A DNA stretch of 64,000 bases from positions 9,827 to 73,826 of IMG/VR virus record IMGVR_UViG_3300019889_000008, one strand, 5' to 3'. This document shows positions 29,755 to 42,977 of this stretch, piece by piece (position 1 is the stretch's first letter; every line of letters begins with the position of its first letter). This DNA is from a virus. The notes under the pieces are model-generated. The model saw nothing but the letters and a program-made list of their open reading frames with translations. It did no database searches and was not told the DNA's origin. The position numbers and the translations under genes are program-made.

Positions 29755-30093
29755 CCTAGTGTGGCGATCCTGTCTGCGCTCAACCCGGAGAGGAATAACG
29801 CAGCGCGGCGGTGATGCCCGTGTAAACGGCGCCGCTAGGTGCCTGGAAGGACCATAGCGCAACGGGTCGGGCATTGCCACCCGGCTCGACCGGAGATGGA
29901 CACCGGGTCAGGGCTCACATATGATGCCCTCGCTGCAACACGTCACGCACGAACCGTCTTGCCAGCCTCGGGCCCAACATCGAGCCCCCCTCGTTGCCGG
30001 TGCCCGATGCGGCCGGTCCCCTTCCCTGGGCCTGTGGCTTCGATAGCCACAGTAGCTTTGCGGGACCGGCCGCTCCCTTAGAAAGCCCCAGAT

Positions 30094-30300
30094 ATGACCG
30101 CAGGACGCATCCACCCCCCGTGGGACGAGAAGACGATTGCCGGCCTCAACCGGTGGCAGGCGAACGACCGGGTGCATCCGTTCACGTGTGGCAACGGGCA
30201 CGATCTGGTGGCGAGGCCCGAGGGATGGTTCTGCCGGGATTGCGACTACACGCAAGATTGGGCTTGGGCCTTCATGGCCACCTATCAGCCGCCGCTCTAG
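30094..30300 (+). CDS. Small Zn-binding phage hypothetical protein
   Basis: HPFTC..GWFCRDCDYTQDWA. Confidence 0.6.
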   Translation: MTAGRIHPPWDEKTIAGLNRWQANDRVHPFTCGNGHDLVARPEGWFCRDCDYTQDWAWAFMATYQPPL

Positions 30301-30550
30301 ACATCGCCCGAGGGCCGGCCTAGATTCTTCGGGCGAATGTTGACCCACACCATCCGCACCGGTCCGGCCCCATCTTTCCCCTTTTGCGCGGGGGGGTCTG
30401 ATGCGGGCCGGCCACCTTCCACCACCGTCCATCGCTAGAAGGCCCCGCCGTCGCGCACAGCGCGCCCGTGGCGGCCGAGGCGCCCCGCCGCTACACCGGG
30501 GCGCCTCGGCCTGGCGGGCCTCTGTGCGCGCCCTGTGCGCGGCCGGCCAT

Positions 30551-32140
30551 TTACCGCCGGATGAAGTCGGCGATGACCGCGGGCGTATCGGCATCGAACC
30601 CCACCACGTCCAGCATGCCGCCATCGTTCGGGTCCGCGATCGTGAACCCGTTCGAAGTCATCGCGACGACCGCCAGCTTGGCAGCGATGCCGGTCTTGGT
30701 CCGGTACAGTTGCAGGGCCTGGACCGGGTGCATCCGGCCCGCATAGGTCTCCGCGTCCGTGTAGATCACGAAGGCGTCGACCTCCAGGCCGTGCTCCAGC
30801 GCATAGAGCATCGGAAGCGAGCAATCGGTGCTCTGGAACCCGAGCGTGCCCATGTAGCGGACCACGTCGCCGAGCCGCTGGCGGGGCGAGATCGCGAGCG
30901 GCATGAAGCCGCGCGAGAAGCCCATCAGGTGATAGTTCTGCTCGGTCGCCGCCGTCACGAGCGCCATCGCCGCCGCGCCCTCACGAGCGGTCAGCGAGGT
31001 GCCGGCGATCTTGTTCCCCTCCATGGAGCCCGAGACGTCGATGCCGAGCAGGAGGCGCTTGCCGGTCGGCTCGATGGTCCGGAACGCCGCATAGAAGCCG
31101 GCATCGAGCGCATCGACGATGCTCTGCACCGGCGCCCACGTGAGGCTCCCGCGCTCGCCATGGCCGCTCGCATAGGTCCGCTGCGCCAGCAGCAGGGCGA
31201 GCGGATGGACGCGGGCCGCCTTCAGCGCCGCCTCATCCTGCACGGTTCGGCAGACATGCATCGCCGCGTCGCCGAGCGGCTTCAGCAGCCCCACGGCCGT
31301 CATCTTGGCCAGCGACCGGATCATCGCCGTGAGCGGCATGCCCGAGAGCAGCGCAGCCCAGACCTCGACGCTGTTCAACGCCGGAATCGGCACCGCCTCG
31401 CGCGGCAGAGAATACGTCCGCACCAGAGCCGCGATCTCGCGCGACGGCACGCCCTCGACGTTCGCCTCCTCATAGCCGCGCACGATCGCCGGCAGGGCCT
31501 CTGCCGTCTTCTCCCGGCCGCAGATCCAATCGAACAGGGCACGCCGCTCCGCATCGTCGACCGCAGTCAGCGGGTGCGCGAGCCGCAGCAGATCTCGATG
31601 CGCCCAGCCGTCGCGCTGGCGATACTTCACGGCCTGGAGCGCCAGCCTGTCGATCGGCTTGCGGGCATACCAGTCGGCGAAGGCGCGCTTCGTGCCACGG
31701 CCCCAGCCGCCGAAAGCCTGAACAAAGTCGGCGGCGTGGAACAGATGGGTTCCAGTGCGGGCGACCTTGTGGAGCGCATCGCCGGCCGCGCGGCGGGTCC
31801 GGTCATCGCCGAGCTTCATTGCCATGGCGAGCGCGAACAGCGCCGGGTCGTTCTTCGGCGCCCGGCCCTCGACGCTGATCGCCACGATGGTCTCGACCGC
31901 GCGCAGGCCATCTGCCGCGATGCAACGCTCGACGGCGTCCGCGCTCTCACGGGTCAGCTTGCCCTCGTTGATGTAGAAGGTGCCGCCCTCGGAACCGAGG
32001 ATCAGGAACCGCTCCAGACGCATCCAGTCGTCGACCGGGAAGGCGTAGCCCCCAGCGGAGTTCGGCACGGTGCCCGCGATCGGCTCGGTCTGCGGGGTGG
32101 CTCCGCCGCGCCCGATGTGCCGGGCGAGGTACGACGTCAT
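30551..32140 (-). CDS. rsr: Ro60 / TROVE-domain RNA-binding protein (Rsr orthologue)
   Basis: NSAGGYAF..RFLILGSEGGTFY, KYRQRDGWAHRDLLRLAH, RVHP, vWA DVSGSM, TDCSLPM, DVVGFD; GGAGGG RBS. Confidence 0.96.
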   Translation of the reverse strand: MTSYLARHIGRGGATPQTEPIAGTVPNSAGGYAFPVDDWMRLERFLILGSEGGTFYINEGKLTRESADAVERCIAADGLRAVETIVAISVEGRAPKNDPALFALAMAMKLGDDRTRRAAGDALHKVARTGTHLFHAADFVQAFGGWGRGTKRAFADWYARKPIDRLALQAVKYRQRDGWAHRDLLRLAHPLTAVDDAERRALFDWICGREKTAEALPAIVRGYEEANVEGVPSREIAALVRTYSLPREAVPIPALNSVEVWAALLSGMPLTAMIRSLAKMTAVGLLKPLGDAAMHVCRTVQDEAALKAARVHPLALLLAQRTYASGHGERGSLTWAPVQSIVDALDAGFYAAFRTIEPTGKRLLLGIDVSGSMEGNKIAGTSLTAREGAAAMALVTAATEQNYHLMGFSRGFMPLAISPRQRLGDVVRYMGTLGFQSTDCSLPMLYALEHGLEVDAFVIYTDAETYAGRMHPVQALQLYRTKTGIAAKLAVVAMTSNGFTIADPNDGGMLDVVGFDADTPAVIADFIRR

Positions 32141-32167
32141 GATCCGTCCCTCCATGCTGGCGTGGGT

Positions 32168-32300
32168 GGTGCGAACGTGTTGTTTGGCAACCGTCGAGGT
32201 GCTCTACCACTGAGCTACGGCAGGCTTTCGCCCGACGACGGGATTCGAACCCGCGGCCACCCGCTTACGAGGCGATAACGATTACCAGTCGGCTCGCACC
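32168..32300 (-). ncRNA. yrlA: YrlA-type Y RNA (tRNA-mimic domain)
   Basis: Terminal stem GGTGCGA/TCGCACC; T arm (GCGGG TTCGAAT CCCGT) lies 5' of D arm (GCTC AGTGGTA GAGC); acceptor-like stem closed by GAAA; directly upstream of rsr. Confidence 0.9.
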
Positions 32301-32309
32301 CTATGGGGT

Positions 32310-32375
32310 GCCCCGAGCGTGTTGCTGGCGGTGGGTGTCATCATGCGAGATAACCCATTGCCTCCGGCTCAGAGC
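32310..32375 (-). ncRNA. Second, minimal Y RNA (Ro-binding stem only)
   Basis: GCTCTGAGC/GCTCGGGGC stem; shares GAGCCG..GTTATC and CAACACGYTC with the YrlA. Confidence 0.7.
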
Positions 32376-32645
32376 GCGGTCCTGCTACTGCGTTTTGGAT
32401 TTGGCCGCAATGCTGTTTCGTATTTCAGCCTGGCGTCGGCCTGGCCGGGCGCCTGACAAACCTCTTGCCCCTGCCCGGCGGCCATTCGGCAACACCTAGC
32501 TTCCCGAGGAGCCGCCGTAGGAAGCGATCCTCCCATCGGTCCTGCCAGATCCGATACGCAATCTCGGTCTTGAAGCCGGGCAGGAACCGGGCAGACCAGC
32601 GGTAATGCGCGCCAAAGCGCCGCCGTTTTTGGCTATGACTGGGCA

Positions 32646-33261
32646 TTATCTGGTGACCTCGTTCTTGCCGGCCGCCTTACGGCGCATCTGGCGCCTCCGG
32701 TGATTGGTCCGGTGCGGCTGCGCGGCTTTCTTGGAGATCCGCCTCCAGAGCCGCATGAAGATGTCATGGGGCCGGCTCCAATAGTTCTCGTTCCCAAGGA
32801 AGACCTGCATGGCGATCCAGGCCGCCCTGCGATGGTTCGACCCTTTCCGAACTTCTCTGACCCCGATCTCGACCGCTGCCGCTTCGCTGACGCCAGCGTT
32901 CGCAGGCTGATCCCTCGCAATCCTAAAGCGGCTGCGGTTCCTCCTCCGCCACTCCTTCTCTTCCGGTGTGCGCACTGGACCGGACGTGCCGTTCAGGCGC
33001 GCGAGCAGCTCGTCGATGGCTCGGTTACGGGTGGACATCGGTCTCGCCCCGCCAATAGGCCAGCGCGGCGCAGCGGTGGCGCTGTAGGGCCTTGGCGCGC
33101 TGGGCCTGGGCCACGGCGGCCCGGCGCTGCGCCTTGGCCTGTAGGGCCTTGCTGCGGCGGCGGGTGCGGTGACGCTTGGGGTGGCTGCGCTCCTGGCGGT
33201 TGTCCAGGAGCGCTTGCCGGGCCTCGTCGCTATTCGGATTGTCGAATGATCGGCGGGTCAT
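32646..33261 (-). CDS. Two very Arg-rich small hypothetical proteins (32646-33038, 33025-33261)
   Basis: Coupled ORFs, highly basic. Confidence 0.45.
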
Positions 33262-33270
33262 GACCGGAGA

Positions 33271-33347
33271 TGGAGGCAGGAAGCGGATTCGAACCGCTGA
33301 CCTTCAGGTTATGGGCCTGACGAGCTGCCGGGCTGCTCTATCCTGCC
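33271..33347 (-). tRNA. tRNA-Met(CAU), initiator-like body with G1-C72, C33 and U73
   Basis: GGCAGGA TA GAGC AGCCCGGCA GCTC G TCAGG CCCATAA CCTGA AGGTC AGCGG TTCGAAT CCGCT TCCTGCC T CCA. Confidence 0.92.
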
Positions 33348-33392
33348 TGCCGATCATATGCCAATGATGGCCGCGGCGGCAACAGCCGGGTC

Positions 33393-33935
33393 TCAGGCAC
33401 CGAACTCGTCGGTATAGTGCAGCAGCATATCGATGTAGGCATCGCCGTTGACCGACGACGGATTGGACCCGAGCAGCGCATTCTGGATGTCGCCGCGCGT
33501 GATGTAGCCGTCCGCATGGGACCAATCGACCCGGCCTGTCGCACGGAGCCGGCGCAGCGTTTCGATCGCCTCGGACAGCCTGATGTGCTCGAAAGCGTAG
33601 ACCCAGCCGCGATTGTCGTAACCGTGGAACAGTTGCTCCGCGCTCCTGCTGTCGAGCCCGAGCCATCGAGCGGCGACAATCGGGATCGCCCATCTCCCAT
33701 GAACGTCGCCAGTCCAAAAGCCCACCGGATCTGCCAGCAGGACAGCGTGGCCTGCCATGCAGGCCGGCGTTCCACATTCATCCGAGAGGCCGCACCAAGA
33801 GCCCATGAAGAACCGCGCTCGATGCCCGGTCACCGGGTCCAGCCACCCGGTCTCGCCCGCAGCTTGGACCTCTTCCATGTGGGCGATCAGGACGTCAAGA
33901 TTGGTCGTGGTGATGTTGAACGAACCATCGGGCAT
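33393..33935 (-). CDS. Phage hypothetical protein
   Basis: CGTPACMAGHA motif; GAGGAG RBS. Confidence 0.6.
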   Translation of the reverse strand: MPDGSFNITTTNLDVLIAHMEEVQAAGETGWLDPVTGHRARFFMGSWCGLSDECGTPACMAGHAVLLADPVGFWTGDVHGRWAIPIVAARWLGLDSRSAEQLFHGYDNRGWVYAFEHIRLSEAIETLRRLRATGRVDWSHADGYITRGDIQNALLGSNPSSVNGDAYIDMLLHYTDEFGA

Positions 33936-34217
33936 AGCTGGGCTCCTCTGTGAGCGGGCTAGGAGTAGATCCGGCGCCGCTGGTGATGGAACGGCATGTA
34001 GCCATAGAGCGGCCGGCGGGACGGCAGGCCCATGCGAAGGCGCCACCGATGGCGAGCAACGATCTGGGCCTGCTCCCGCTTTCGAGAGAAGGTCCGCCAT
34101 TCGTGCGCCAATCGCTCATGGAATGGCGTGTCGAAGTCGAGCAGCCGATCGTCTAGGCGAAACCGCAGCCGGCGCCTGAAGGGGATCAGCCGAAGGACAA
34201 CCATCTTCCCCTCGCGT

Positions 34218-35015
34218 CTATTCCTCGCCGGCCTTCATGGCTTCCACCATGAGCGCGGTCAGATCCCTTTTGCGGCTCGGCTTGCACTGGACCTTGATCA
34301 GGTCGACAGGGCCGCCGGGCACCTCGTCGTTGAACACCCCGACCACGATGCGTCCCGTGAACCATGCGAAGGTGTCCAGGTCGGTCCGGCCGGCATACAG
34401 CATCGGGCCCTCGGCGAACTGGTGATGCCCATGAACGACATGCCTGTCGCCGTGGCCCCGCTCGTCGTCGTCATCGTAGAGCTTCCACATGAGCACATGA
34501 GGGCTCTGCTCACCGAGCGAGACAGTGGGGTCGACGCCGGCATGGACGAACACCCGATGTTGAGTGACGCAGATCATCGGAAGGCCGTCGAGCCAATCGA
34601 GGTGCTCGACCGGCACGATCGCCCGGTCGGCTATCTCGCCGACCTTCTGGCCGTATGAGATCAGCGTCGCCCCGCCGCCGTTGACGATCCACCACCCGAG
34701 GTCGGCTTTCCCGGATGCGCATTGGACCATGATGTCCTCGTGGTTCCCCTTGAGGCAGATCCAAGTCCAGCCCGGCGACGGCCCGGCCATCAGCCGGTCG
34801 ATGATCTGCTTGCTCTGCGGGCCCCGGTCGACATAGTCGCCCAAGAAGACGATCGTGCCAGGCCGCTTTGCATCGGCCTCGATGGCGGCCAGCGCCGCCT
34901 CCAGGATGTCGAGGCGTCCATGCAGGTCCGCGATGGCATAGGTGTAGCCCCGCGGGGCCTGGAGGCCCGCCAGCAGCCGGTCGCGCATTTCGTGTGCGGA
35001 GATGGTCTTGGGCAT
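34218..35015 (-). CDS. Metallophosphoesterase (Ser/Thr phosphatase, NinI/PphA-like)
   Basis: DLHG, GDYVDRG, GNHE, HAG and HGH motifs. Confidence 0.92.
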   Translation of the reverse strand: MPKTISAHEMRDRLLAGLQAPRGYTYAIADLHGRLDILEAALAAIEADAKRPGTIVFLGDYVDRGPQSKQIIDRLMAGPSPGWTWICLKGNHEDIMVQCASGKADLGWWIVNGGGATLISYGQKVGEIADRAIVPVEHLDWLDGLPMICVTQHRVFVHAGVDPTVSLGEQSPHVLMWKLYDDDDERGHGDRHVVHGHHQFAEGPMLYAGRTDLDTFAWFTGRIVVGVFNDEVPGGPVDLIKVQCKPSRKRDLTALMVEAMKAGEE

Positions 35016-35038
35016 CGTCTCACCGGTGTGCAAAGATC

Positions 35039-35186
35039 GCCGCGGGCCGGGCGCTAATCCGGCCTCCCTCTTGAGCCGACCTGATTCTCTTCGGCCGGGC
35101 CCGGCCTCCAAGGATAGGGCTCCCGAACCTGTACAAAGGTGGGGCGCCTGAGACGGCGGCATGTCTGCTTCCCACGCTGCCGCGGC
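35039..35186 (-). ncRNA. tRNA-shaped structured RNA with non-canonical loops
   Basis: GCCGCGG/CCGCGGC closing stem; D-like hairpin GCGTG GGAAGCAGA CATGC; T-like hairpin GCCGG ATTAGCGC CCGGC. Confidence 0.5.
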
Positions 35187-35234
35187 CACGCCATCATATC
35201 CGAGATCGGGCACAGATCAATGCCCATTGCGTGG

Positions 35235-35323
35235 TGGTGGGCGCCCGAGGATTCGAACCTCACGCGGCCGACCCGTCTCGGATTGCGCGCCGGGTTTACA
35301 GCCCGGTGACGGGAAAGGCGCCC
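35235..35323 (-). tRNA. D-armless tRNA-Tyr(GUA)-like RNA
   Basis: GGGCGCC TTTCCCGTCA CCGGG CTGTAAA CCCGG [27-nt variable arm] TGAGG TTCGAAT CCTCG GGCGCCC ACCA. Confidence 0.8.
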
Positions 35324-35499
35324 CGAGAGGTTTGAGCGGGGAATACACACGGCAGCCCTCCCCGCCCGACACAGCTACCTCAGACCGCGTCCGGCCCTTG
35401 GACCACTGCGGCGCCCCCACCTCGGAGGGACCGCTGCTGAAGCCTACCCATCTGCCGAGAGAAGGCTTCCATCTCGCACTGCCACCTAGCCCGCATGGG

Positions 35500-35570
35500 A
35501 TCGGGCGGCTGGATTCGAACCAACGTTGCAGAGACCAAAGCTCTGTGTCCTACCGCTAGACGACGCCCGA
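35500..35570 (-). tRNA. tRNA-Gln(UUG)
   Basis: TCGGGCG/CGCCCGA acceptor; CAGAG CTTTGGT CTCTG anticodon arm; GTTGG TTCGAAT CCAGC; U73 followed by CCCA. Confidence 0.9.
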
Positions 35571-35579
35571 GCGGGAGGA

Positions 35580-35668
35580 TGGCGGAGGGCGGAGGAATCG
35601 AACCCCTAGCGCTGTCAACGCTACCCCGGTTTTCGGGACCAGTTGCCGGCCATTCAGCGGCGCCCTCC
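35580..35668 (-). tRNA. (8/4) allo-tRNA / tRNA-Ser(CGA)
   Basis: 8-bp acceptor GGAGGGCG/CGCCCTCC; 4-bp T stem GGGG/CCTC; G73 CCA; long variable arm; anticodon loop CCCGAAA. Confidence 0.88.
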
Positions 35669-35670
35669 AT

Positions 35671-35759
35671 TGGCGGAAGGGGAGAGGATCGAACTCTCGC
35701 GAGGACTGGCCCCGGCTCCCGGATAGCAACCGGGCGCATTACCGCTCTGCCACCCTTCC
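35671..35759 (-). tRNA. tRNA-Ser(GCU), canonical 7/5
   Basis: GGAAGGG/CCCTTCC GCCA; CCCGG TTGCTAT CCGGG; long variable arm. Confidence 0.93.
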
Positions 35760-36138
35760 AAAATCAGAAGGATGATCGACTCGATTGCTGTCGATATCGC
35801 AGGGCGTGGGTCATGTCGGCCATGTAGCACGGCGCCTTCGCGGAGTCTAGATCGGCCAGCAATCAGCCCGCCGGTCTCGGAGACTAGCGCCCCGCCCAAA
35901 AACGGCAATTATGCATTCGTTTTTGGATGCTGTCGTCTTAACCATTCGAGCCAAGAAATTATGAACAATCCCATATACAACATGGGCGGCGAGGTTGGTG
36001 GCGATCCGGTTGTCGATCAACTCGCCATCCTGCTACTCGTCGCATTGGTCGTGATCTTCATCGTCGGATATTGCTGGTGGTCGCGACGACTTTCCAGCCG
36101 TGGCGACCGCCCCCCGAAACCATGAGATCTCCGCTGGG

Positions 36139-36366
36139 TTAAGAGGGGGGCAACATTTCGTTGCGGAGCTTCCTCACGGTCTCCGCGAGCCTGTCTGCGG
36201 TCTCGCGGGCGGTGACCATCCGCTCCTCCATCCAGAGCAGCCGGTGGCACGCCTCCTCGACAAGCGAGAACCATCCCTGCTGTGGTGCATCGGCGGACGT
36301 CCGCACGAAGTCTAGGACCGCTTGCGCGTCGAACGTGTTTCGGTCCTGCTCGGGGAGCGTTCCCAT
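36139..36366 (-). CDS. Hypothetical protein (matches an internal domain of 25172-25756)
   Basis: LPEQDR..FDA..APQQGWFSLVEEACHR. Confidence 0.6.
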   Translation of the reverse strand: MGTLPEQDRNTFDAQAVLDFVRTSADAPQQGWFSLVEEACHRLLWMEERMVTARETADRLAETVRKLRNEMLPPS

Positions 36367-36827
36367 GGTGATCTCTCCTGGGGCGGCCGGAAGACGATGA
36401 CTTCAGCGGCCAGCGGGTTGAGGTAACGGAAGATCTCGGCGGCCACCAAGAGCCACGGCAGGCCACCCTTGCCGCAGCCAAGGGCTGGGACGCCGATGGA
36501 ATTGATGCCAAGCCGCTCGATCGTTGGGGCCAAGTGGCTCAACCCCCAGCCGATCCATTCGGGCCGGCTGGGCTTGCGCCACTCCCGCTTCGTCGGGAAA
36601 TGGATGACCCACCGCGGGTGCGAGCCGGAGCCACGGTCGAATTCGTGCAGGCGCCCCGGCTGCAACTGGCCAATGGCGCAGGCGGCCATGTAGGAGCGGC
36701 TCGCCTCGGGAAAGCGGTGCCGGAACTCCTTCGCCAGCCCAGCGCCCATCACGCCCTCGCAGTTCACGGGGTTGACCAGGGCCTCGGCGCCGCAGGCGAA
36801 GATGTCGCCGTCGCTGTATCGGATCAT
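36312..36827 (-). CDS. Macrodomain protein, DarG-like ADP-ribose hydrolase
   Basis: GDIF..ALVNPVNCEGVMGAGLA, IHFPTKREWRKPS, SIGVPALGCGKGGLPW. Confidence 0.9.
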   Translation of the reverse strand: MIRYSDGDIFACGAEALVNPVNCEGVMGAGLAKEFRHRFPEASRSYMAACAIGQLQPGRLHEFDRGSGSHPRWVIHFPTKREWRKPSRPEWIGWGLSHLAPTIERLGINSIGVPALGCGKGGLPWLLVAAEIFRYLNPLAAEVIVFRPPQERSPWERSPSRTETRSTRKRS

Positions 36828-36828
36828 C

Positions 36829-38081
36829 CTATCGCCTCCTCGGCGCCCGATGCCCGAGCGCCTTATAGAGCGCATCGCGGGTCTCGACGTCGTCTGGCCC
36901 GTACCGGAGCGAGTTGTTAAAGTGAGCCCCAAGCACCAGAGCAATCGCTCGAACTCCGGGCTCCAAATAGACGTACTGGACCCATCCGAAGACGGGCCGA
37001 CACGGGGTAGGAGGTTTTGGCAACCTCTCTTCCGTGATCCAGGTGGCCACTGCCGTCCCGCTCCGCCCGAGAAGCTTGGCCAACTCGGGCGGCGTGAACG
37101 TGAGCAATGATGCCCATTCGTCGTCGACATTGACCTCACGGACACTGCCGAAATCCATCAAGCGATCAAGTCGCAGCCGGGGATCATCGACGAACACGCC
37201 CGCACGCTCTCGATATGAGTCGCGAGCGCGCTCGGCGGTTCCAGAGCCATAAGCCTTGCGGCGCCGCCGGTTGTGCTCTTCGCCCCAATAGCGATCCTTC
37301 CGCTCTTCAGGCGTCAAGCCGCCGCGCGGGCCTGACCCGATGCCCAAGGATCGCCCGGGATGTTTCCCGTCTCGTTTCATCAGCGGGTGCTCAGGGGAAC
37401 ATACCGCTTGCTCGACACGTCGTACCGCATCAGGTCGGGGCACCGCGCTTTGATCTGTGACAGATCATGCGAGGCTTGGGCATAGGTGACCTCGCCGATC
37501 CGAACGATGTCGGCGCGGTTCAATGATCCGGTGCGCATGAGATGTTCAACGGCCTTGGCGAGGCGCACACGGACTCCTGGCCGTAGTCCGGCCCATGTCC
37601 CGCTCCCATCGCCGTTGTCACCTTCGGACGCCACGGCATCGCGCGACCGCTCCGCCTCGGTCAGGATCGCAAGAACGTCGGCGATCTTGAGCGTCGTATA
37701 GGTGACGCCAGGGATTGCTGCGTGGCTCTCGACGACCCGACGTATCTCTGCGAGATCGACCATCTCCGGATCAGTCCCGGCAGCCATTCAGATGGTCCGC
37801 TTGCTCGGCCAATCGCGGGGCATGTTCGTCGCCGCCCCCGGCACCTTGGTCGCCGAGGCGAGGTAGTCCATTCGGGTCCGGTCGCGACGGCCCTCGGCGT
37901 CGCGCTCGTTGTCCGACAGCGCGAGCCAAGCCGTCACCATGGCCCGATACACGTCGCCGAGGGTCTCTGGTGCTGGCAAGCCCAGCGCCGCCATACGGGC
38001 GAAGCAGCCGGGCTCCATGTCACAGGCATGCAGCACCATAATGGCGCCGTGCTGCTCGATCGCTTGTTCAACGGTAATCAT
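36829..38081 (-). other. Hypothetical genes 36829-37380, 37380-37787, 37788-38081
   Basis: Coupled ORFs; the first has an HTH-like segment ELAKLLGRSGTAVATWI. Confidence 0.5.
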
Positions 38082-40135: not shown

Positions 40136-41251
40136 TCACCCGACGTCCCGGAAGCGATCCCGCATCTTGCGCGCAACGCCCTTTTGCAGGATCGCCTGCT
40201 GTGCGGCATCGCAATACCGCTGGACCTCGGAGAGGGTCTTGTGGCCCGTCACGGTCATGATCTCGTGCGGGGTGCAGCCGGCCTCGGCCAGCCGCCGGGC
40301 CGCCGCCTTGCGCAGGCCATGCGACACGCACCGATCGGGAAGCCCGGCGGCATCGAAGTTGTCGGCCATCCAGCGGCTCAGGGTGGTCGGGGCGAACTTG
40401 CGGTGGATGCCGTTGAGGAGAATGTGCTGGTGGATGTCGGTCGGCACCTTCTCCCGCGCGCAGGTTTCCTTCCACGCATCGAGCGCCTCGATCAGTTCGG
40501 GCTCGCAGTTGATGTTGAGCGTCCGATCGTTCTCGGCGTCGTCGCCCTTCTCCTGCTGCACCGCCATGGTGGCCCGGCGATGACCCTCCTTGTCGGTCCA
40601 CCACGTGATCTCGGGCAACTTCATCTTGGCCACGTCGACCACCCGCTGGCCGCTGTAGAGGAACAGGGCGAAGGCCGTCCGCTCCCGCGTCCCAAGCTTC
40701 CACCGCTTCTCGTACTGCGCGATCTCCGCCTCGTTCCAAGTGTGGTGACTGCCGATCTCCAACTTGTCGACGCCCATGGTCGGGTCGCGGTCGATCCACC
40801 CGCGCCGGATCACAAACTTGGTCAGTTGCCGCATCACCTTGAGCAGGTTGTTATGCTGGCCGGGGCGATCGTGGTAGGTCGCGAGGAACTCCTCGATCTT
40901 GGCGACCGGGGTGCCCCGCACCGACCGGTGGCCATGGAGCCGGCAGAAGATGTTGAGCAGCCGGGTGGTCTTCTTCTTGGCCTCCTCGCCCTGCGCGCCG
41001 AGCCCGACCTTGATGAAGTCGGTCTTGGCGGCGTTCCACGTCCGGTCGCCGCTGCTGGTCTTCACGACCTCGGTCAGCGGCGTCGCCTGGGGCGCGAAGC
41101 CGAGCGCCATGGTGTACTGCCCCATGTATTCGGGCGAGCCCGGCTTGCCGATCAGCTTCACCGCCTTCTGCTTGGGATACCGGAAGTAAGACCGCTCCTT
41201 GCCGTGCCGGTCGGTGAAAGTGTTAACGTATTTCAAATTTACGGTTGTCAT
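40136..41251 (-). CDS. int: Tyrosine integrase
   Basis: LFLYSGQRVVDV, HGLRKAAARRLAEAGCTPHEIMTVTGHKTLSEVQRY; N-terminal DRHGKERSYFR. Confidence 0.95.
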   Translation of the reverse strand: MTTVNLKYVNTFTDRHGKERSYFRYPKQKAVKLIGKPGSPEYMGQYTMALGFAPQATPLTEVVKTSSGDRTWNAAKTDFIKVGLGAQGEEAKKKTTRLLNIFCRLHGHRSVRGTPVAKIEEFLATYHDRPGQHNNLLKVMRQLTKFVIRRGWIDRDPTMGVDKLEIGSHHTWNEAEIAQYEKRWKLGTRERTAFALFLYSGQRVVDVAKMKLPEITWWTDKEGHRRATMAVQQEKGDDAENDRTLNINCEPELIEALDAWKETCAREKVPTDIHQHILLNGIHRKFAPTTLSRWMADNFDAAGLPDRCVSHGLRKAAARRLAEAGCTPHEIMTVTGHKTLSEVQRYCDAAQQAILQKGVARKMRDRFRDVG

Positions 41252-41267
41252 TATGATCTCCGGGTTA

Positions 41268-41359
41268 GGACACGTATCGGTGCCAGGGCACACATTAGTG
41301 CCTTCGCCCGGAGATCGGGAAGGACTATTTTTACAAACCAAGGGCACCGGGGCGTGCCC
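41268..41359. promoter_or_regulatory. Three GGGCAC-N6-GTGCCC-type palindromes upstream of int
   Basis: 41268-41285, 41286-41303 and 41342-41359 (perfect). Confidence 0.6.
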
Positions 41360-41628
41360 TAGGCGTCGTCCCATGACGTGTCGCGGACCGGCGCCGCCAG
41401 ATCCCAGACGCCACCGACATGCGGGATGGCCTTGTATGCCGCCCGCAGTTCGTCGGCATCCCAGGTCATGACCCCGCCTACCAGCCTGGCGGGCGGCATC
41501 TTCCGGTCCTTGACCATCCGCTGGAAATTCGACACGCCGATGCCGACATAGGCCGCGGCCTCGTTGATCTGGAGGCCGAGCAGGCACGGCAGCCGGTCCA
41601 GGGCTTCAGCGCGGGCAACCTTCTTCAC
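41359..41628 (-). CDS. xis: Excisionase/AlpA-like HTH protein
   Basis: EAAAYVGIGVSNFQRMVKDRKMPPAR..WD; directly upstream of int. Confidence 0.8.
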   Translation of the reverse strand: MKKVARAEALDRLPCLLGLQINEAAAYVGIGVSNFQRMVKDRKMPPARLVGGVMTWDADELRAAYKAIPHVGGVWDLAAPVRDTSWDDA

Positions 41629-41817: not shown

Positions 41818-42711
41818 CTAGACCATCTCGGGGAACGTCTCCTTGACCCCACCGCGGGTCCGGAAGACGAAGTTATTGGGCCTCTTACCCAAGCGCACGG
41901 CATTCCAGGCTTTCCAGAGCACCGCCAATTCGATGATGATTGGTCGCCGCCCGGCATCGGCCGCCGCATTGACGAAGTACCGGCGGACGGTCATCGCCGG
42001 ATGATCACTCGACAATCCGACCCCGGTGGCGATCTGCTCGCAGAACGACAGGGCGAGATCTGGGTCTATGCGGGAAGTCCGCAAATAGAAGAAGCCCCAA
42101 GCCGCAACCTTGATCGGCCTGAAAACCCTGTTCCAATCCCGCCCTCGCATGCTCGCGTCGATGATGTCGGGGTTCGCTTCCACGTGCAGCCGCAGATCCT
42201 CGTTCGGGACGATCTCGTTGAATGTCGTGTTCCCGGCGTTCAAGGAGATGTCGAACCGGGCGATGGCGGCGGTGTTCCGATCCTTCGCCAGATCGTGCCG
42301 TTTCAAAGTGTCTTGGCCAGTCCGAACACCGGGTCCATCCATTGTGTCGTATGCATCCGGGTCGATACCGAAGATCACGTAGGACACGAATGGTTTGCGG
42401 GCCCTTCGGCCGCCGAGCAGTCGGTGCTGGCCATTGGCCAAATTGCCGTCCCAATCGAAGATGATCGCCTCGCCATTCAGCCGCCATTTTCGGGCGCTGA
42501 TGCGACCGGAGTACAGCGTGATGCGCCCCTTGCGGATGGCTCTGTTGTTGACCGGGTTTCGGGCCAGCATCTCCTCAAAGCCATTCTCGTCGATCTCGAT
42601 GACGACAACCGCAGCCGTTTGGACGAGATAGTCCAGGAGCCTTGCCCAGCCCGCCCTCGTCTTTGGCGTAACGATTCGCGGGACATCAATCACATACGGA
42701 AGCTGATCCAT
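41818..42711 (-). CDS. ParB/Srx-like domain protein
   Basis: NRAI..WRLNGEAIIFD.DGNLANGQHRL. Confidence 0.7.
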   Translation of the reverse strand: MDQLPYVIDVPRIVTPKTRAGWARLLDYLVQTAAVVVIEIDENGFEEMLARNPVNNRAIRKGRITLYSGRISARKWRLNGEAIIFDWDGNLANGQHRLLGGRRARKPFVSYVIFGIDPDAYDTMDGPGVRTGQDTLKRHDLAKDRNTAAIARFDISLNAGNTTFNEIVPNEDLRLHVEANPDIIDASMRGRDWNRVFRPIKVAAWGFFYLRTSRIDPDLALSFCEQIATGVGLSSDHPAMTVRRYFVNAAADAGRRPIIIELAVLWKAWNAVRLGKRPNNFVFRTRGGVKETFPEMV

Positions 42712-42977
42712 TCCTCCCCCCTATTTGAGCCGCTTGAGACCGATCTCCTTCACCGTCTCGAACTCGATGCGCGAGCGGCGGAAGACCTCGTCCTTGGCCC
42801 AATACAGGACGTGCCAGCACTCGCGGACGTCCTGCATCCCGGCGGCCCGGCCCATCGACTGATAGGTCACGATTTCGCCGGCTGGCACCTTGAGCAGCAG
42901 GGCGACGAGGCCCTTCCGCTGATCGATGCGGGGCCGGCTCGGCCTGCGCATGGTGGCGATGCCCATTTCCATCTCGG

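What the first reader, a model, noticed from the sequence alone, without database searches (positions are those of the whole stretch)
30551..36827. Candidate phage RNA counter-defence module: Ro60, two Y RNAs, irregular tRNAs, phosphoesterase, macrodomain
Seen: one co-oriented minus-strand region with a macrodomain, tRNA-Ser(GCU), an (8/4) allo-tRNA, tRNA-Gln, a D-armless tRNA-Tyr, a tRNA-shaped RNA, a metallophosphoesterase, a C33 tRNA-Met, Arg-rich peptides, two Y RNAs and Ro60. Knowledge: bacterial Rsr/Y RNA is tied to RNA decay (PNPase) and to rtcB RNA-repair operons induced by tRNA damage, and phage tRNAs can offset anticodon nucleases. Inference: most RNAs here deviate from canonical tRNA shape or anticodon loop, suggesting nuclease-resistant substitutes and decoys handled by a phage Ro RNP. 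No RNA ligase is visible in the window.
Basis: partly seen in the sequence, partly recalled or inferred. Interest (0 to 1): 0.88.

Follow-up and report, generated by a model that had tools for sequence, protein, structure and literature searches.

The report
Phage Ro60 cassette beside odd tRNAs
A temperate soil phage carries side by side a Ro60 protein with two Y RNAs, five tRNAs (three non-standard), a DarG-like macrodomain and a lambda-type phosphatase. All are real and most look like separate anti-defence accessories, but close relatives keep the tRNAs without Ro60, so this is probably not one machine.

Summary

**What is there**
- Ro60 (TROVE plus Ro60-type vWA).
- A YrlA-type Y RNA and a 67-nt minimal Y RNA just upstream of Ro60.
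- tRNA-Met, tRNA-Ser(GCU), an 8/4 tRNA-Ser(CGA) and tRNA-Gln.
- A tRNA-Tyr with no D hairpin.
- A PPP-family phosphatase, a macrodomain and small basic ORFs.

**Context.** The contig is a complete temperate phage, with Gam, Erf and integrase upstream. Its host is probably an alphaproteobacterium.

**Key results**
1. Two complete collinear relatives keep the macrodomain, tRNA cluster, phosphatase and basic ORF but have no Ro60. Ro60 plus both Y RNAs is a clean 1.9-kb indel (30548-32423).
2. The tRNA-Tyr belongs to a phage class in which the D strand pairs with the variable loop. All 24 distinct sequences show the pairing, with 15 different hexamers. This scan has found the class before on other DNA, and I found no paper describing it.
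3. The 8/4 tRNA-Ser is a published class, with homologues in about 140 mycobacteriophages.
4. C33 in tRNA-Met and in the 8/4 tRNA-Ser is a recent U-to-C change.
5. The macrodomain is DarG-type and points to DNA de-ADP-ribosylation.
6. No RNA ligase was found.

**Verdict.** This is a mosaic of separately promoted accessory units. A Ro-centred tRNA-decoy machine is not supported. However, 15 of 71 bacterial Ro60 loci lie beside tRNA arrays.

The parts
30551..32140 (-). Ro60 (Rsr) orthologue, 529 aa. An upstream in-frame ATG at 32155 would give 534 aa.
   Evidence: Pfam TROVE and vWA_Ro60. phrog_850. The MIDAS-type motif DVSGS is visible in the translation. The 529-aa form is the one on record.
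30548..32423 (-). Ro60 plus Y RNA cassette: a clean indel relative to relative G002
   Evidence: The flanks 30422-30547 (83% identity) and 32425-32448 (96%) are adjacent in G002. No TROVE gene in G001, G002 or G003, with a positive control in G000.
32168..32300 (-). YrlA-type Y RNA: a permuted tRNA-like domain closed by a long bulged helix
   Evidence: Rfam RF02553 at 31.5 bits over model positions 24-84. Fold z-score -2.4. blastn homologues 100-400 nt upstream of Ro60 in about 20 or more other loci. The published ET08 YrlA scores 37.4 bits.
32311..32377 (-). Minimal Y RNA (bulged stem only)
   Evidence: RF01656 (nematode sbRNA, a Y RNA relative) at 31.5 bits, E 0.002. The same family hits upstream of Ro60 in L001 and L006. 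Predicted hairpin, z-score -1.8.
32425..33038 (-). Two basic ORFs (73 aa and 130 aa) found only in this phage among the three compared genomes
   Evidence: Translations. No Pfam or PHROG function. Absent from G001 and G002 apart from the last 24 nt.
33025..33261 (-). Conserved 78-aa Arg/Lys-rich ORF
   Evidence: 82-88% aa identity in G001 and G002. No family match.
33271..33347 (-). Elongator-type tRNA(CAU) with C33, preceded by a promoter-like site at 33353-33382
   Evidence: ARAGORN and Rfam at 60.5 bits. U33 in the G002 copy and in the L012 and L015 homologues. Promoter-like site.
33393..33935 (-). 180-aa phage protein of unknown function
   Evidence: phrog_889 at 1.5e-7. Conserved in G001 and G002. 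The protein atlas finds only viral hypothetical clusters.
34218..35015 (-). PPP-family (lambda NinI / PrpA / Rhizobiales-like) metallophosphatase, 265 aa
   Evidence: Pfam Metallophos. phrog_246, NinI-like. Motifs DLHG, GDYVDRG and GNHE seen. PDB best hit is lambda phosphatase 1g5b. 60-63% identity to Mesorhizobium, Brucella and Phyllobacterium proteins.
35038..35220 (-).
   Evidence: The promoter motif is kept in G000, G001 and G002. The 7-bp closing helix is kept with one compensatory pair.
35235..35323 (-). tRNA-Tyr(GUA) with no D hairpin. Its D strand CCCGUC pairs with GACGGG in the variable loop. A73 and CCA are encoded.
   Evidence: Alignments A1, A3 and A4. All 24 distinct family members have a perfect 6-bp complement, with 15 different hexamers. 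Shuffles give a mean of 5.4 and a maximum of 12.
35324..35497 (-). 174-nt segment found only in this phage, between tRNA-Gln and tRNA-Tyr; unexplained
   Evidence: Absent from G001 and G002. No Rfam hit. Fold no better than shuffles. No homologue in fetched loci.
35498..35570 (-). Canonical tRNA-Gln(UUG)
   Evidence: The anticodon stem covaries with G001 and G002.
35581..35668 (-). 8/4 tRNA-Ser(CGA) of the allo-tRNA group, with C33, G73 and encoded CCA
   Evidence: tRNA-Sec model at 33.2 bits. The eighth acceptor pair covaries G-C / U-A across homologues. About 144 phage records hold homologues. The class is described in PMC5389517.
35671..35759 (-). Canonical class II tRNA-Ser(GCU)
   Evidence: The anticodon stem covaries with G001 and G002.
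36312..36827 (-). Stand-alone DarG-type macrodomain, 171 aa
   Evidence: Pfam Macro. PDB 5m31 (T. aquaticus DarG macrodomain) at 1e-36 and 5m3i (M. tuberculosis DarG) at 1e-32. The residues aligned with K80, N22 and W83 are kept; the one aligned with K29 is Ala. Conserved in G001 and G002.

Best explanation
The stretch is the far end of the leftward early operon of a temperate phage organised like lambda (Gam, Erf, integrase, then accessory genes). It is a mosaic of separately acquired and, in part, separately promoted accessory units, not one machine.

**Unit 1: macrodomain.** A stand-alone DarG-type macrodomain probably removes ADP-ribose that a host DarT toxin places on phage DNA.

**Unit 2: tRNA cluster.** It holds four tRNAs: Ser-GCU, 8/4 Ser-CGA, Gln-UUG and the pseudoknotted Tyr-GUA. 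These are most likely working decoders. They serve the phage's commonest Ser codons and give it its own supply if host tRNAs are depleted or cut. The rewired variable region of tRNA-Tyr is a plausible escape from nucleases that cut the tRNA-Tyr variable loop.

**Unit 3: phosphatase.** A lambda NinI-type PPP phosphatase sits behind its own conserved promoter and structured leader. Its substrate is unknown.

**Unit 4: tRNA(CAU).** It has its own promoter-like site.

**Unit 5: Ro60 cassette.** A self-contained 1.9-kb cassette carries a minimal Y RNA, a YrlA-type Y RNA and Ro60. Among the compared genomes it is present only in this phage. By homology it forms a Ro60/Y RNA particle that engages host 3'-5' exonucleases such as PNPase to handle structured or damaged RNA.

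**Shown and inferred.** The presence, family membership, conservation pattern and indel boundaries are shown. All activities and any defence target are inferred.
For: **Phage and lifestyle**
- Whole-genome collinearity with two complete IMG/VR phages at 70-90% nucleotide identity.
- Integrase, Erf-like and Gam-like genes lie upstream.

**Modularity**
- G001 and G002 lack TROVE, while the positive control in G000 is found.
- The cassette boundaries are exact.
- tRNA-Met is present in G000 and G002 but not in G001.
- Two further segments are found only in G000.
- The conserved promoter motif GGGCATTGATCTGTGCCC...GATATGATG lies upstream of the phosphatase leader in all three phages, and a similar site lies before tRNA-Met.

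**Working tRNAs**
- Compensatory changes occur in the Ser-GCU and Gln anticodon stems.
- The eighth acceptor pair of the 8/4 tRNA-Ser covaries.
- The Tyr pseudoknot pairing holds in 24 of 24 sequences.
- TCG (291) and AGC (240) are the phage's top Ser codons.

**Proteins**
- DarG type for the macrodomain.
- PPP phosphatase.

**Ro60 and Y RNAs**
-.
- The nearest Ro60 proteins are alphaproteobacterial (about 61%), closer than any catalogued phage Ro60 (53% or less).

**Published precedents**
- Phage Ro60 with two upstream Y-like RNAs binding PNPase (PMC12135203).
- Septu and retron-Eco7 cutting the tRNA-Tyr variable loop (PMC13096335, PMC11555353).
- The macrodomain alone suffices as a DarT antitoxin (PMC5179494).
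Against: - No expression, processing or binding data exist. Only the source soil metagenome holds this DNA.
- Ro60 and auxiliary tRNAs do co-occur elsewhere more than chance would give:
  - 15 of 71 bacterial Ro60 loci have 14-24 tRNA genes within 5 kb;
  - mycobacteriophage Sparky has Ser-GCU, an 8/4 tRNA-Ser homologue, Pro, Trp, Tyr and YrlA just upstream of Ro;
  - tRNA(CAU) homologues lie 1-2 kb from Ro60 in two other viral contigs;
  - an 11,557-bp Logan contig probably carries both a 73% Ro60 and a 68% phosphatase homologue.

  So a functional tie between Ro60 and the tRNAs cannot be excluded.
- The host is unknown. Codon supply, tRNA escape and the presence of DarT therefore cannot be checked.
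- K29 of DarG is Ala here.
Confidence: 0.6

Rival explanations
1. The whole block is one RNA counter-defence module, in which the phage Ro60/Y RNA particle handles, protects or presents non-standard tRNAs. Those tRNAs act as nuclease-resistant substitutes or decoys against tRNA-targeting defences, with the phosphoesterase healing RNA ends.
For: - Ro60 and tRNA clusters co-occur in Sparky, in two viral contigs and in 15 of 71 bacterial Ro60 loci.
- Two independent U33-to-C changes occur in strongly conserved tRNAs.
- The tRNA-Tyr variable loop is rewired, and that loop is the published cut site of Septu and retron-Eco7 (PMC13096335).
- A Ro60-like phage protein counters a defence system (PMC11482910).
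- The phosphatase family includes the Pnkp phosphatase as a distant member.
Against: - The same tRNA cluster, phosphatase and macrodomain are kept in two complete relatives with no Ro60.
- The Ro60 cassette has clean indel boundaries.
- No RNA ligase was found.
- The macrodomain is the DNA-acting DarG type.
- The phosphatase is an ordinary NinI/PrpA type, common in Hyphomicrobiales.
- Internal promoter-like sites are conserved.
- The tRNAs match abundant codons.
Confidence: 0.15
2. The block serves the lysogen, not lytic growth. One phage tRNA replaces a host tRNA gene disrupted by integration (tRNA-dependent lysogeny). Ro60 and its Y RNAs, expressed from the prophage, improve host survival under UV, oxidative or starvation stress, as bacterial Rsr does.
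For: - The phage has a tyrosine integrase about 3 kb upstream.
- The units have their own sigma-70-like promoters that could fire in a prophage.
- tRNA-dependent lysogeny is documented (PMC10865867).
- Bacterial Ro60 aids stress survival (summarised in PMC12135203 and PMC4201824).
- The Ro60 is closest to cellular alphaproteobacterial proteins.
Against: - attP and attB are not identified, and no host genome is known.
- Five tRNAs are more than one integration site would require.
- The 8/4 tRNA-Ser and pseudoknotted tRNA-Tyr classes also occur in phages with large tRNA arrays. I did not check the lifestyles of those phages.
Confidence: 0.12
3. Plain codon supply plus hitch-hiking. The tRNAs only boost translation of phage codons. 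C33 and the other oddities are neutral or mildly harmful drift. The Ro60 cassette is a recent passenger with no role in infection.
For: - Anticodons CGA and GCU match the two commonest Ser codons, and CAA makes up 24% of Gln codons.
- C33 is recent and not shared by all relatives.
- The cassette is absent from three of the four related contigs examined.
Against: - The tRNA genes are 92-96% identical between phages whose flanks are 70-77% identical. That is strong purifying selection, yet the near-universal U33 changed twice.
- The Ro60 reading frame is intact, with high GC3 (0.89).
- The pseudoknotted tRNA-Tyr design is conserved across very different phages.
Confidence: 0.1

Closest known systems
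Bacterial and phage Rsr/Ro60 with YrlA/YrlB Y RNAs (Chen et al. 2014, PMC4201824; Thermus phage phiLo Ro60 with Yrl1/Yrl2, PMC12135203)
   Same: - TROVE plus vWA protein.
- Two Y RNAs directly upstream of the gene.
- One Y RNA has a permuted tRNA-like domain and the other is a bare bulged stem.
- The Rfam score is in the range of the published phage member ET08.
   Different: - The host phage is a temperate phage, probably of an alphaproteobacterium. Of the 355 catalogued phage records with Ro60, 350 are actinophages.
- The protein is closer to cellular alphaproteobacterial Ro60 than to any catalogued phage Ro60.
- The cassette is present or absent among otherwise collinear phages.
Salmonella rsr-yrlBA-rtcBA RNA repair operon (PMC7790460)
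   Same: Ro60 and two Y RNAs lie next to genes that could touch RNA ends or tRNA damage.
   Different: - No RtcB, no Rnl-type ligase and no RtcR-like regulator were found.
- The neighbours are tRNAs, a PPP phosphatase and a DarG-type macrodomain.
(8/4) tRNA-Ser of the allo-tRNA group in alphaproteobacterial phages (Mukai et al., PMC5389517)
   Same: 8-bp acceptor stem, 4-bp T stem, long variable arm, G73 and a serine anticodon.
   Different: - C33 in this phage and in G001.
- Homologues also occur, mostly unannotated, in about 140 mycobacteriophages.
Phage tRNAs that evade tRNA-cutting defences (PMC10264068, PMC11555353, PMC11464382, PMC13096335)
   Same: A small phage tRNA set that includes Tyr, with changes in the anticodon loop or variable region relative to the usual form.
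   Different: - No host, nuclease or cleavage data here.
- The tRNA-Tyr change is a whole-architecture rewiring, not a point difference.
DarG macrodomain and phage orphan DarG-like antitoxins (PMC5179494, PMC11825919, PMC13309987)
   Same: - About 1e-36 to the T. aquaticus DarG macrodomain.
- The catalytic Lys equivalent to K80 is kept, as are N22 and W83.
- Stand-alone, as in the phage orphan antitoxins.
   Different: - No C-terminal DarT-binding domain.
- The K29 equivalent is Ala.
- Activity is untested.
Lambda NinI / PP-lambda and Rhizobium phage 16-3 p047
   Same: Same PPP motifs. Matches phrog_246. 66% nucleotide identity to 16-3 p047.
   Different: It carries a conserved promoter and a roughly 175-nt structured leader whose closing helix covaries.
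Pseudoknotted phage tRNA-Tyr with no D hairpin
   Same: Same design: the 6-nt D strand pairs with the variable loop inside a 4-bp variable stem, followed by a conserved UGG. Also GUA, A73 and CCA.
   Different: Here it sits in a five-tRNA set of a 74-kb temperate phage, not in a large array.

Membership tests
Ro60 / Rsr (TROVE) | TROVE (HEAT-repeat ring) domain followed by a Ro60-type vWA domain | tested here: met
   Pfam PF05731 at 6e-38 and PF25045 at 2e-62.
Ro60 / Rsr (TROVE) | MIDAS-type DxSxS motif in the vWA domain | tested here: met
   DVSGS is seen in the translation. Read by eye.
Ro60 / Rsr (TROVE) | Binds Y RNA and tethers a 3'-5' exonuclease | not testable with these tools
   Needs EMSA or RIP. 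The precedent is PMC12135203.
YrlA (Rfam RF02553) | Permuted tRNA-like domain: T arm, capped acceptor-like stem, D arm | tested here: met
   The cmscan alignment covers model positions 24-84, including GGUUCGAAUCC and AGCUCAGUGGUAGAGC.
YrlA (Rfam RF02553) | Encoded within 4 kb of Ro60 and closed by a long bulged helix | tested here: met
   It ends 27 nt before the Ro60 ATG. Homologues occupy the same position in about 20 or more other loci.
YrlA (Rfam RF02553) | Reaches Rfam's curated score (69 bits) | tested here: inconclusive
   31.5 bits here. The published ET08 YrlA scores 37.4, Sparky 36.6 and Cashline 42.2. Known phage members therefore also fall below the threshold.
(8/4) tRNA-Ser / allo-tRNA | 8-bp acceptor and 4-bp T stem, with position 8 paired | tested here: met
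   The eighth pair is G-C here, in Lacusarx and in Sparky, and U-A in Bxz1, Rey and Bongo. The alternative fifth T-stem pair never forms.
(8/4) tRNA-Ser / allo-tRNA | Long variable arm, G73 and a serine anticodon | tested here: met
(8/4) tRNA-Ser / allo-tRNA | Charged by SerRS and used in translation | not testable with these tools
   Indirect only: UCG is the phage's commonest Ser codon.
Canonical cloverleaf tRNA-Tyr (RF00005) | D stem-loop between the acceptor and anticodon arms | tested here: not met
   Only 10 nt lie at that position. ARAGORN and the Rfam tRNA model both miss it.
Pseudoknotted phage tRNA-Tyr with no D hairpin (scan-defined class) | The hexamer after U8-U9 is complementary to a hexamer in the variable loop; also GUA anticodon, canonical T arm and A73 | tested here: met
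   All 24 sequences are perfect, with 15 different hexamers. Shuffles give a mean of 5.4 and a maximum of 12 of 24. The search pattern fixed three of the six D-strand bases; the three free bases carry the covariation.
DarG-type macrodomain | Sequence kinship with solved DarG macrodomains and the catalytic Lys (K80 of T. aquaticus DarG) | tested here: met
   5m31 at 1.3e-36 and 5m3i at 1.1e-32. FPTK aligns with K80, and N22 and W83 are kept. Residue roles come from PMC5179494.
DarG-type macrodomain | C-terminal DarT-binding domain and an adjacent DarT gene (the full DarTG system) | tested here: not met
   The protein is only 171 aa. The DarT family search found nothing, but its controls also found nothing. 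I therefore file it as an orphan DarG-like macrodomain and not as a DarTG system.
PPP-family phosphatase (lambda NinI / PrpA / RLPH) | Metallophos fold with GDxHG, GDxxDRG and GNHE motifs | tested here: met
   Pfam PF00149. phrog_246 at 2.8e-46. Motifs read. PDB hits 1g5b and 5vjv.
RNA repair systems (Rtc, Pnkp/Hen1, T4 Pnk-Rnl) | An RNA ligase (RtcB or Rnl family) | tested here: not met
   No PF01139 or PF09414 match in the 73.8-kb genome, and the controls rang.
Nuclease-evading phage tRNAs | Differs from the host tRNA at or near a known cut site and resists cleavage | not testable with these tools
   The host is unknown. Only differences between phages are seen: U33 versus C33 and the rewired Tyr variable region.

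The most novel reading that the evidence does not exclude
Ro60/YrlA particles and auxiliary tRNA sets are partners in a general anti-tRNase strategy of mobile elements.

- The non-standard tRNAs here would be escape variants from host tRNA nucleases. These are the Tyr with its variable loop locked in a pseudoknot, and the 8/4 Ser and the Met with U33 changed to C.
- Ro60, with its tRNA-mimicking Y RNA, would then clear cleaved host tRNA fragments, or shield or titrate the nucleases.
- The recurrent Ro60-tRNA-array neighbourhood would reflect this partnership. It is seen in 15 of 71 bacterial loci, in Sparky and in other viral contigs.
Probability: 0.15. Interest if true: 0.85.

Novelty: new variant of a known kind. 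Interest (0 to 1): 0.55.

Why it matters
**Mostly known kinds.** Phage Ro60 with Y RNAs, 8/4 tRNA-Ser, phage DarG-like macrodomains and NinI phosphatases are all published.

**What this locus adds**
1. *A natural presence/absence pair.* Collinear phages occur with and without a cleanly delimited Ro60/Y RNA cassette. This shows the cassette moves as a unit, and it gives the comparison needed to test what a phage Ro60 does.
2. *Another member of an apparently unpublished tRNA architecture.* The tRNA-Tyr has its D helix rebuilt by a pseudoknot with the variable loop. Here I found three cultured Pseudomonas phage homologues that could be tested directly. The published cut site of Septu and retron-Eco7 is the tRNA-Tyr variable loop, which makes resistance an obvious hypothesis.
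3. *A recurrent neighbourhood of Ro60 with tRNA arrays in at least four bacterial lineages.* I did not find this described in the papers I read.
4. *Two independent U33-to-C changes in otherwise strongly conserved phage tRNAs.*

Tried and rejected
- **The look-up of encoding contigs was closed.** I could not fetch the 11,557-bp Logan contig that probably carries both the 73% Ro60 and the 68% phosphatase homologue. Their co-location rests only on equal contig length.
- **No near DNA match in catalogued phages.**
- **Sequencing-run search.** Only two DNA runs of one soil sample, the likely source, hold the stretch, and no RNA holder is listed. Nothing can be said about expression, and I did not spend read laying.
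- **The conserved 18-mer promoter in JGI metagenomes.** It gave 30 stretches, but only the two already-known relatives are kin. The rest are chance hits.
- **Ro60-based locus search in IMG/VR.** It found only distant Ro60 loci (54% or less), none sharing the other genes.
- **The 331-aa reading of the phosphoesterase.** Rejected: GC3 is flat upstream of 35015 and the relatives start later.
- **Folding energies.** Those of the odd tRNAs and the 174-nt insert are not better than shuffles. Support comes from covariation only.
- **Pfam, PHROGs and the protein atlas.** They gave no function for the 73, 75, 78, 81, 130, 135 and 180-aa ORFs. One Pfam query for the plus-strand ORF was sent in the wrong frame (35969 instead of 35961) and should be ignored.
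- **DarT family search.** It is uninformative because its controls were silent.
- **Initiator tRNA reading of the tRNA(CAU).** Rejected by eye: G1-C72 pairs, and the anticodon stem has only two G-C pairs.

Full report
**1. Is it there?**

Yes. ARAGORN and Rfam at curated thresholds find three tRNAs on the minus strand: Met-CAU at 33271-33347, Gln-UUG at 35498-35570 and Ser-GCU at 35671-35759.

A permissive Rfam scan of 30000-38000 adds four more hits:
- a tRNA-Sec-like hit at 35584-35668 (33.2 bits);
- a second at 35239-35323 (28.5 bits);
- a YrlA hit at 32198-32261 (31.5 bits, model positions 24-84);
- a hit to the nematode stem-bulge RNA family at 32310-32376 (31.5 bits).

Pfam gives three protein families:
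- TROVE plus vWA_Ro60 for 30551-32155;
- Metallophos for the ORF ending at 34218;
- Macro for the ORF ending at 36312.

The anticodon loop of tRNA-Met reads CCCAUAA and that of the 35584-35668 RNA reads CCCGAAA. Both therefore have C at position 33.

**2. What genome is this?**

The window is part of a 73.8-kb virus record with 66% GC. Structural genes lie on the plus strand. A leftward block holds a Mu Gam-like protein, an Erf-like annealing protein and a tyrosine integrase at 40136-41587. The phage is therefore temperate, and the finding lies at the far end of its leftward operon.

The phosphatase is 60-63% identical to proteins of Mesorhizobium, Brucella and Phyllobacterium, and 66% (nucleotide) to p047 of Rhizobium phage 16-3. 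The nearest Ro60 proteins are from alphaproteobacterial MAGs. The host is probably an alphaproteobacterium, perhaps of the Hyphomicrobiales. This is an inference.

**3. Relatives decide the module question.**

A DNA pattern taken from the odd tRNA-Tyr recovered two IMG/VR contigs. Both are complete, with direct terminal repeats, and both are collinear with this phage at 70-90% identity. I call them G001 (68,373 bp) and G002 (72,773 bp).

Both relatives keep the following:
- the macrodomain;
- tRNA-Ser(GCU), the 8/4 tRNA-Ser and tRNA-Gln;
- the odd tRNA-Tyr;
- a conserved promoter-like motif;
- the phosphatase;
- the 180-aa ORF and the 78-aa basic ORF.

Neither has a TROVE gene, while the same search finds it in this genome and in control genomes.

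Against G002 the junctions are exact. Window 32425-32448 (96% identity) and 30422-30547 (83%) are neighbours in G002. So 30548-32423, which holds the spacer, the short Y RNA, YrlA and Ro60, is a clean 1.9-kb indel.

Other differences between the three phages:
- The 73-aa and 130-aa basic ORFs form a second piece found only in this phage.
- tRNA-Met is present in G002 but not in G001.
- A 174-nt segment (35324-35497) and a roughly 390-nt segment (35834-36220) are also unique to this phage. The second holds a possible plus-strand 54-aa ORF.
- A third related contig, G003 (84% complete), also lacks TROVE.

The region is thus a hot spot for small insertions. Ro60 is not needed for keeping the tRNA cluster.

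**4. The RNAs**

*Ser-GCU and Gln.* Both are canonical. Their anticodon stems carry compensatory changes between the three phages.

*The 8/4 tRNA-Ser(CGA).*
- It has an 8-bp acceptor stem, a 4-bp T stem, a long variable arm, G73 and an encoded CCA.
- Homologues at 75-80% identity occur in about 144 phage records: cluster C-type and Bongo/Rey-type mycobacteriophages, plus Sphingobium, Erythrobacter and Rhodococcus phages. They are annotated variously as Ser, Leu, OTHER, a CDS or nothing.
- The eighth acceptor pair covaries between G-C and U-A, and the alternative fifth T-stem pair never forms.
- The class is published, including in alphaproteobacterial phages (PMC5389517).

*tRNA-Tyr(GUA).*
- It has a 7-bp acceptor stem, UU, a 6-nt strand, the anticodon arm, a 4-bp variable stem with a large loop, a canonical T arm, and A73-CCA.
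- The 6-nt strand is complementary to six bases in the variable loop.
- Homologues in three cultured Pseudomonas phages (SCYZ1, Rembedalsseter, Lyrsu03) show compensatory changes in that pairing and in the variable stem. ARAGORN misses them all.
- A looser pattern brought the set to 24 distinct sequences. All 24 have a perfect 6-bp complement, with 15 different hexamers. Random re-pairing gives a mean of 5.4 and a maximum of 12.
- The pattern fixed three of the six D-strand bases, so the three free ones carry the test.
- A UGG usually follows the 3' strand and could stand in for the D-loop GG. This is an inference.
- Earlier follow-ups in this scan reached the same reading on at least 34 other genomes and found no paper. 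My own literature search found none either.

*C33.*
- In the 8/4 tRNA-Ser, this phage and G001 have C33 and G002 has U33, as do the mycobacteriophage and Lacusarx homologues.
- In tRNA-Met, this phage has C33. G002 and the two homologues in other viral contigs have U33.
- These tRNA genes are 92-96% identical between phages whose flanks are about 70-77% identical. They are under purifying selection, yet U33 changed twice. The meaning is open.

*Y RNAs.*
- The YrlA match covers the T-arm, capped stem and D-arm. The flanks form a long bulged helix.
- The published ET08 YrlA scores 37.4 bits with the same Rfam model, and Sparky and Cashline score 36.6 and 42.2. A score below threshold is therefore normal for phage members.
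- blastn finds the tRNA-like domain 100-400 nt upstream of Ro60 in about 20 or more other loci.
- The short RNA is a bulged hairpin with the GGGUUAUCUC stretch familiar from animal Y RNAs (my recollection). It hits the same sbRNA family that also hits upstream of Ro60 in two other phage loci.
- Two Y-like RNAs upstream of a phage Ro60 have been shown to bind it in Thermus phage phiLo (PMC12135203).

*The 'tRNA-shaped RNA'.* It starts about five bases after a conserved -10 box and ends just before the phosphatase start codon. Its 7-bp closing helix is kept in all three phages with one C-G to A-U change. The interior is poorly conserved. I read it as a structured leader. A tRNA shape is not shown.

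**5. The proteins**

*Macrodomain.*
- It matches the solved DarG macrodomains of Thermus aquaticus (1e-36) and Mycobacterium tuberculosis (1e-32).
- The Lys aligned with the catalytic K80 is kept, as are N22 and W83. K29 is Ala.
- In DarG the macrodomain alone is a sufficient antitoxin (PMC5179494).
- Phage orphan DarG-like antitoxins are published (PMC11825919, PMC13309987; abstracts).
- This points to reversal of DNA ADP-ribosylation, not to RNA.

*Phosphatase.*
- It has the DLHG, GDYVDRG and GNHE motifs.
- It matches phrog_246 (NinI-like).
- Its PDB hits are lambda phosphatase, plant Rhizobiales-like phosphatase 2, ApaH and, weakly, the Pnkp phosphatase.
- Lambda phosphatase has 2',3'-cyclic phosphodiesterase activity in vitro (my recollection of work by Keppetipola and Shuman). 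An RNA-end role therefore cannot be excluded, but nothing here points to it.

*RNA ligase.* No RtcB or Rnl-type ligase is present in the genome.

**6. Links between Ro60 and tRNAs elsewhere**

- In mycobacteriophage Sparky the order is Ser-GCU, an 8/4 tRNA-Ser homologue (80% identity), Pro, Trp, Tyr, YrlA and Ro.
- tRNA(CAU) homologues lie 1-2 kb from Ro60 in two viral contigs.
- Among 71 bacterial loci with Ro60 homologues, 15 have 14-24 tRNA genes within 5 kb, and two more have 7-8. They come from Eremiobacterota/Vulcanimicrobiota, Gaiellaceae and other Actinomycetes, Alphaproteobacteria and Myxococcota.
- I found no mention of Ro60 in a paper on mycobacterial tRNA arrays.
- A preprint notes that the Ro60-like gp130 of phage Bas63, which counters the Ppl system, sits next to that phage's tRNA genes (PMC11482910).

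This recurrent neighbourhood is the main evidence that keeps a functional Ro60-tRNA link alive.

**7. Reading**

The best-supported picture is a mosaic of accessory units with separate histories and, in part, separate promoters:
- an anti-DarT macrodomain;
- a small set of working tRNAs that match abundant phage codons (TCG 291 and AGC 240) and may also act as back-up against tRNA-cutting defences;
- a NinI-type phosphatase;
- a mobile Ro60/Y RNA cassette.

[quoted passage not shown] A tRNA-Tyr whose variable loop is locked into a helix is therefore a natural candidate for resistance. This is an inference.

It is weakened by the Ro-less relatives, by the DNA-type macrodomain and by the absence of a ligase.

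**8. Novelty**

Ro60 with Y RNAs in phages, 8/4 tRNA-Ser, DarG-like phage macrodomains and NinI phosphatases are known kinds. The pseudoknotted tRNA-Tyr appears unpublished, but this scan has found it repeatedly. New here are:
- the clean presence/absence of the Ro60 cassette among collinear phages;
- the cultured Pseudomonas phage members of the tRNA-Tyr class;
- the double U33-to-C change;
- the count of tRNA arrays beside bacterial Ro60 genes.

Noticed in passing
L021:1501-1587 (Bxz1); also Alice, Catera and about 135 other mycobacteriophage records: Cluster C-type mycobacteriophages carry an 8/4 tRNA-Ser(CGA) homologue that is mostly unannotated or mislabelled as Leu, OTHER or a pseudogene neighbour. 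A published analysis states that these phages avoid tRNA-Ser(cga) (PMC10264068).
   Followed up: partly
L077, L079, L082-L085, L092, L094, L105, L116, L120, L125, L126, L130, L133 (within 5 kb of Ro60): 15 of 71 bacterial Ro60 loci lie beside arrays of 14-24 tRNA genes, in at least four lineages. Several arrays have adjacent Ser(cga)/Ser(gct) pairs like the one in the window.
   Followed up: partly
L105:290-364: ARAGORN calls a tRNA with a CUA (amber) anticodon inside a tRNA array next to Ro60 in a Vulcanimicrobiota MAG.
   Followed up: no
L007:13258-13369 and L009:12848-12960: DUF3800-III RNA (Rfam RF02962, above the curated score) lies about 5-9 kb from Ro60 in two viral contigs.
   Followed up: no
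window 35324-35497: A 174-nt segment was inserted exactly at the CCA end of tRNA-Gln, so that Gln now ends UCCC. It is absent from both relatives. It has no Rfam hit, no homologue and no special fold, and it contains a terminator-like hairpin at 35351-35366.
   Followed up: partly
window 35834-36220: A roughly 390-nt AT-richer segment unique to this phage. It holds a possible plus-strand 54-aa ORF with a hydrophobic stretch (35961-36125) and a promoter-like site at 35908-35936 facing the tRNA cluster.
   Followed up: partly
window 35193-35225; G001 42,690-42,760: The palindromic promoter-like motif GGGCATTGATCTGTGCCC is conserved in the three phages and duplicated in tandem in G001.
   Followed up: partly
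L012:5891-5967 and L015:6851-6927: Homologues of the phage tRNA(CAU), all with a U73-type discriminator and U33, lie 1-2 kb from Ro60 in two unrelated viral contigs.
   Followed up: partly
L029:447-1123: A 437-kb viral contig carries two canonical tRNA-Tyr genes and a pseudoknotted one in the same cluster, so the odd form does not always replace the canonical one.
   Followed up: no
window 30480-30520 and 32424-32450: An imperfect direct repeat of about 14 nt (GCCAGGCCGA-type) lies on both sides of the Ro60 cassette and may mark the recombination site.
   Followed up: no
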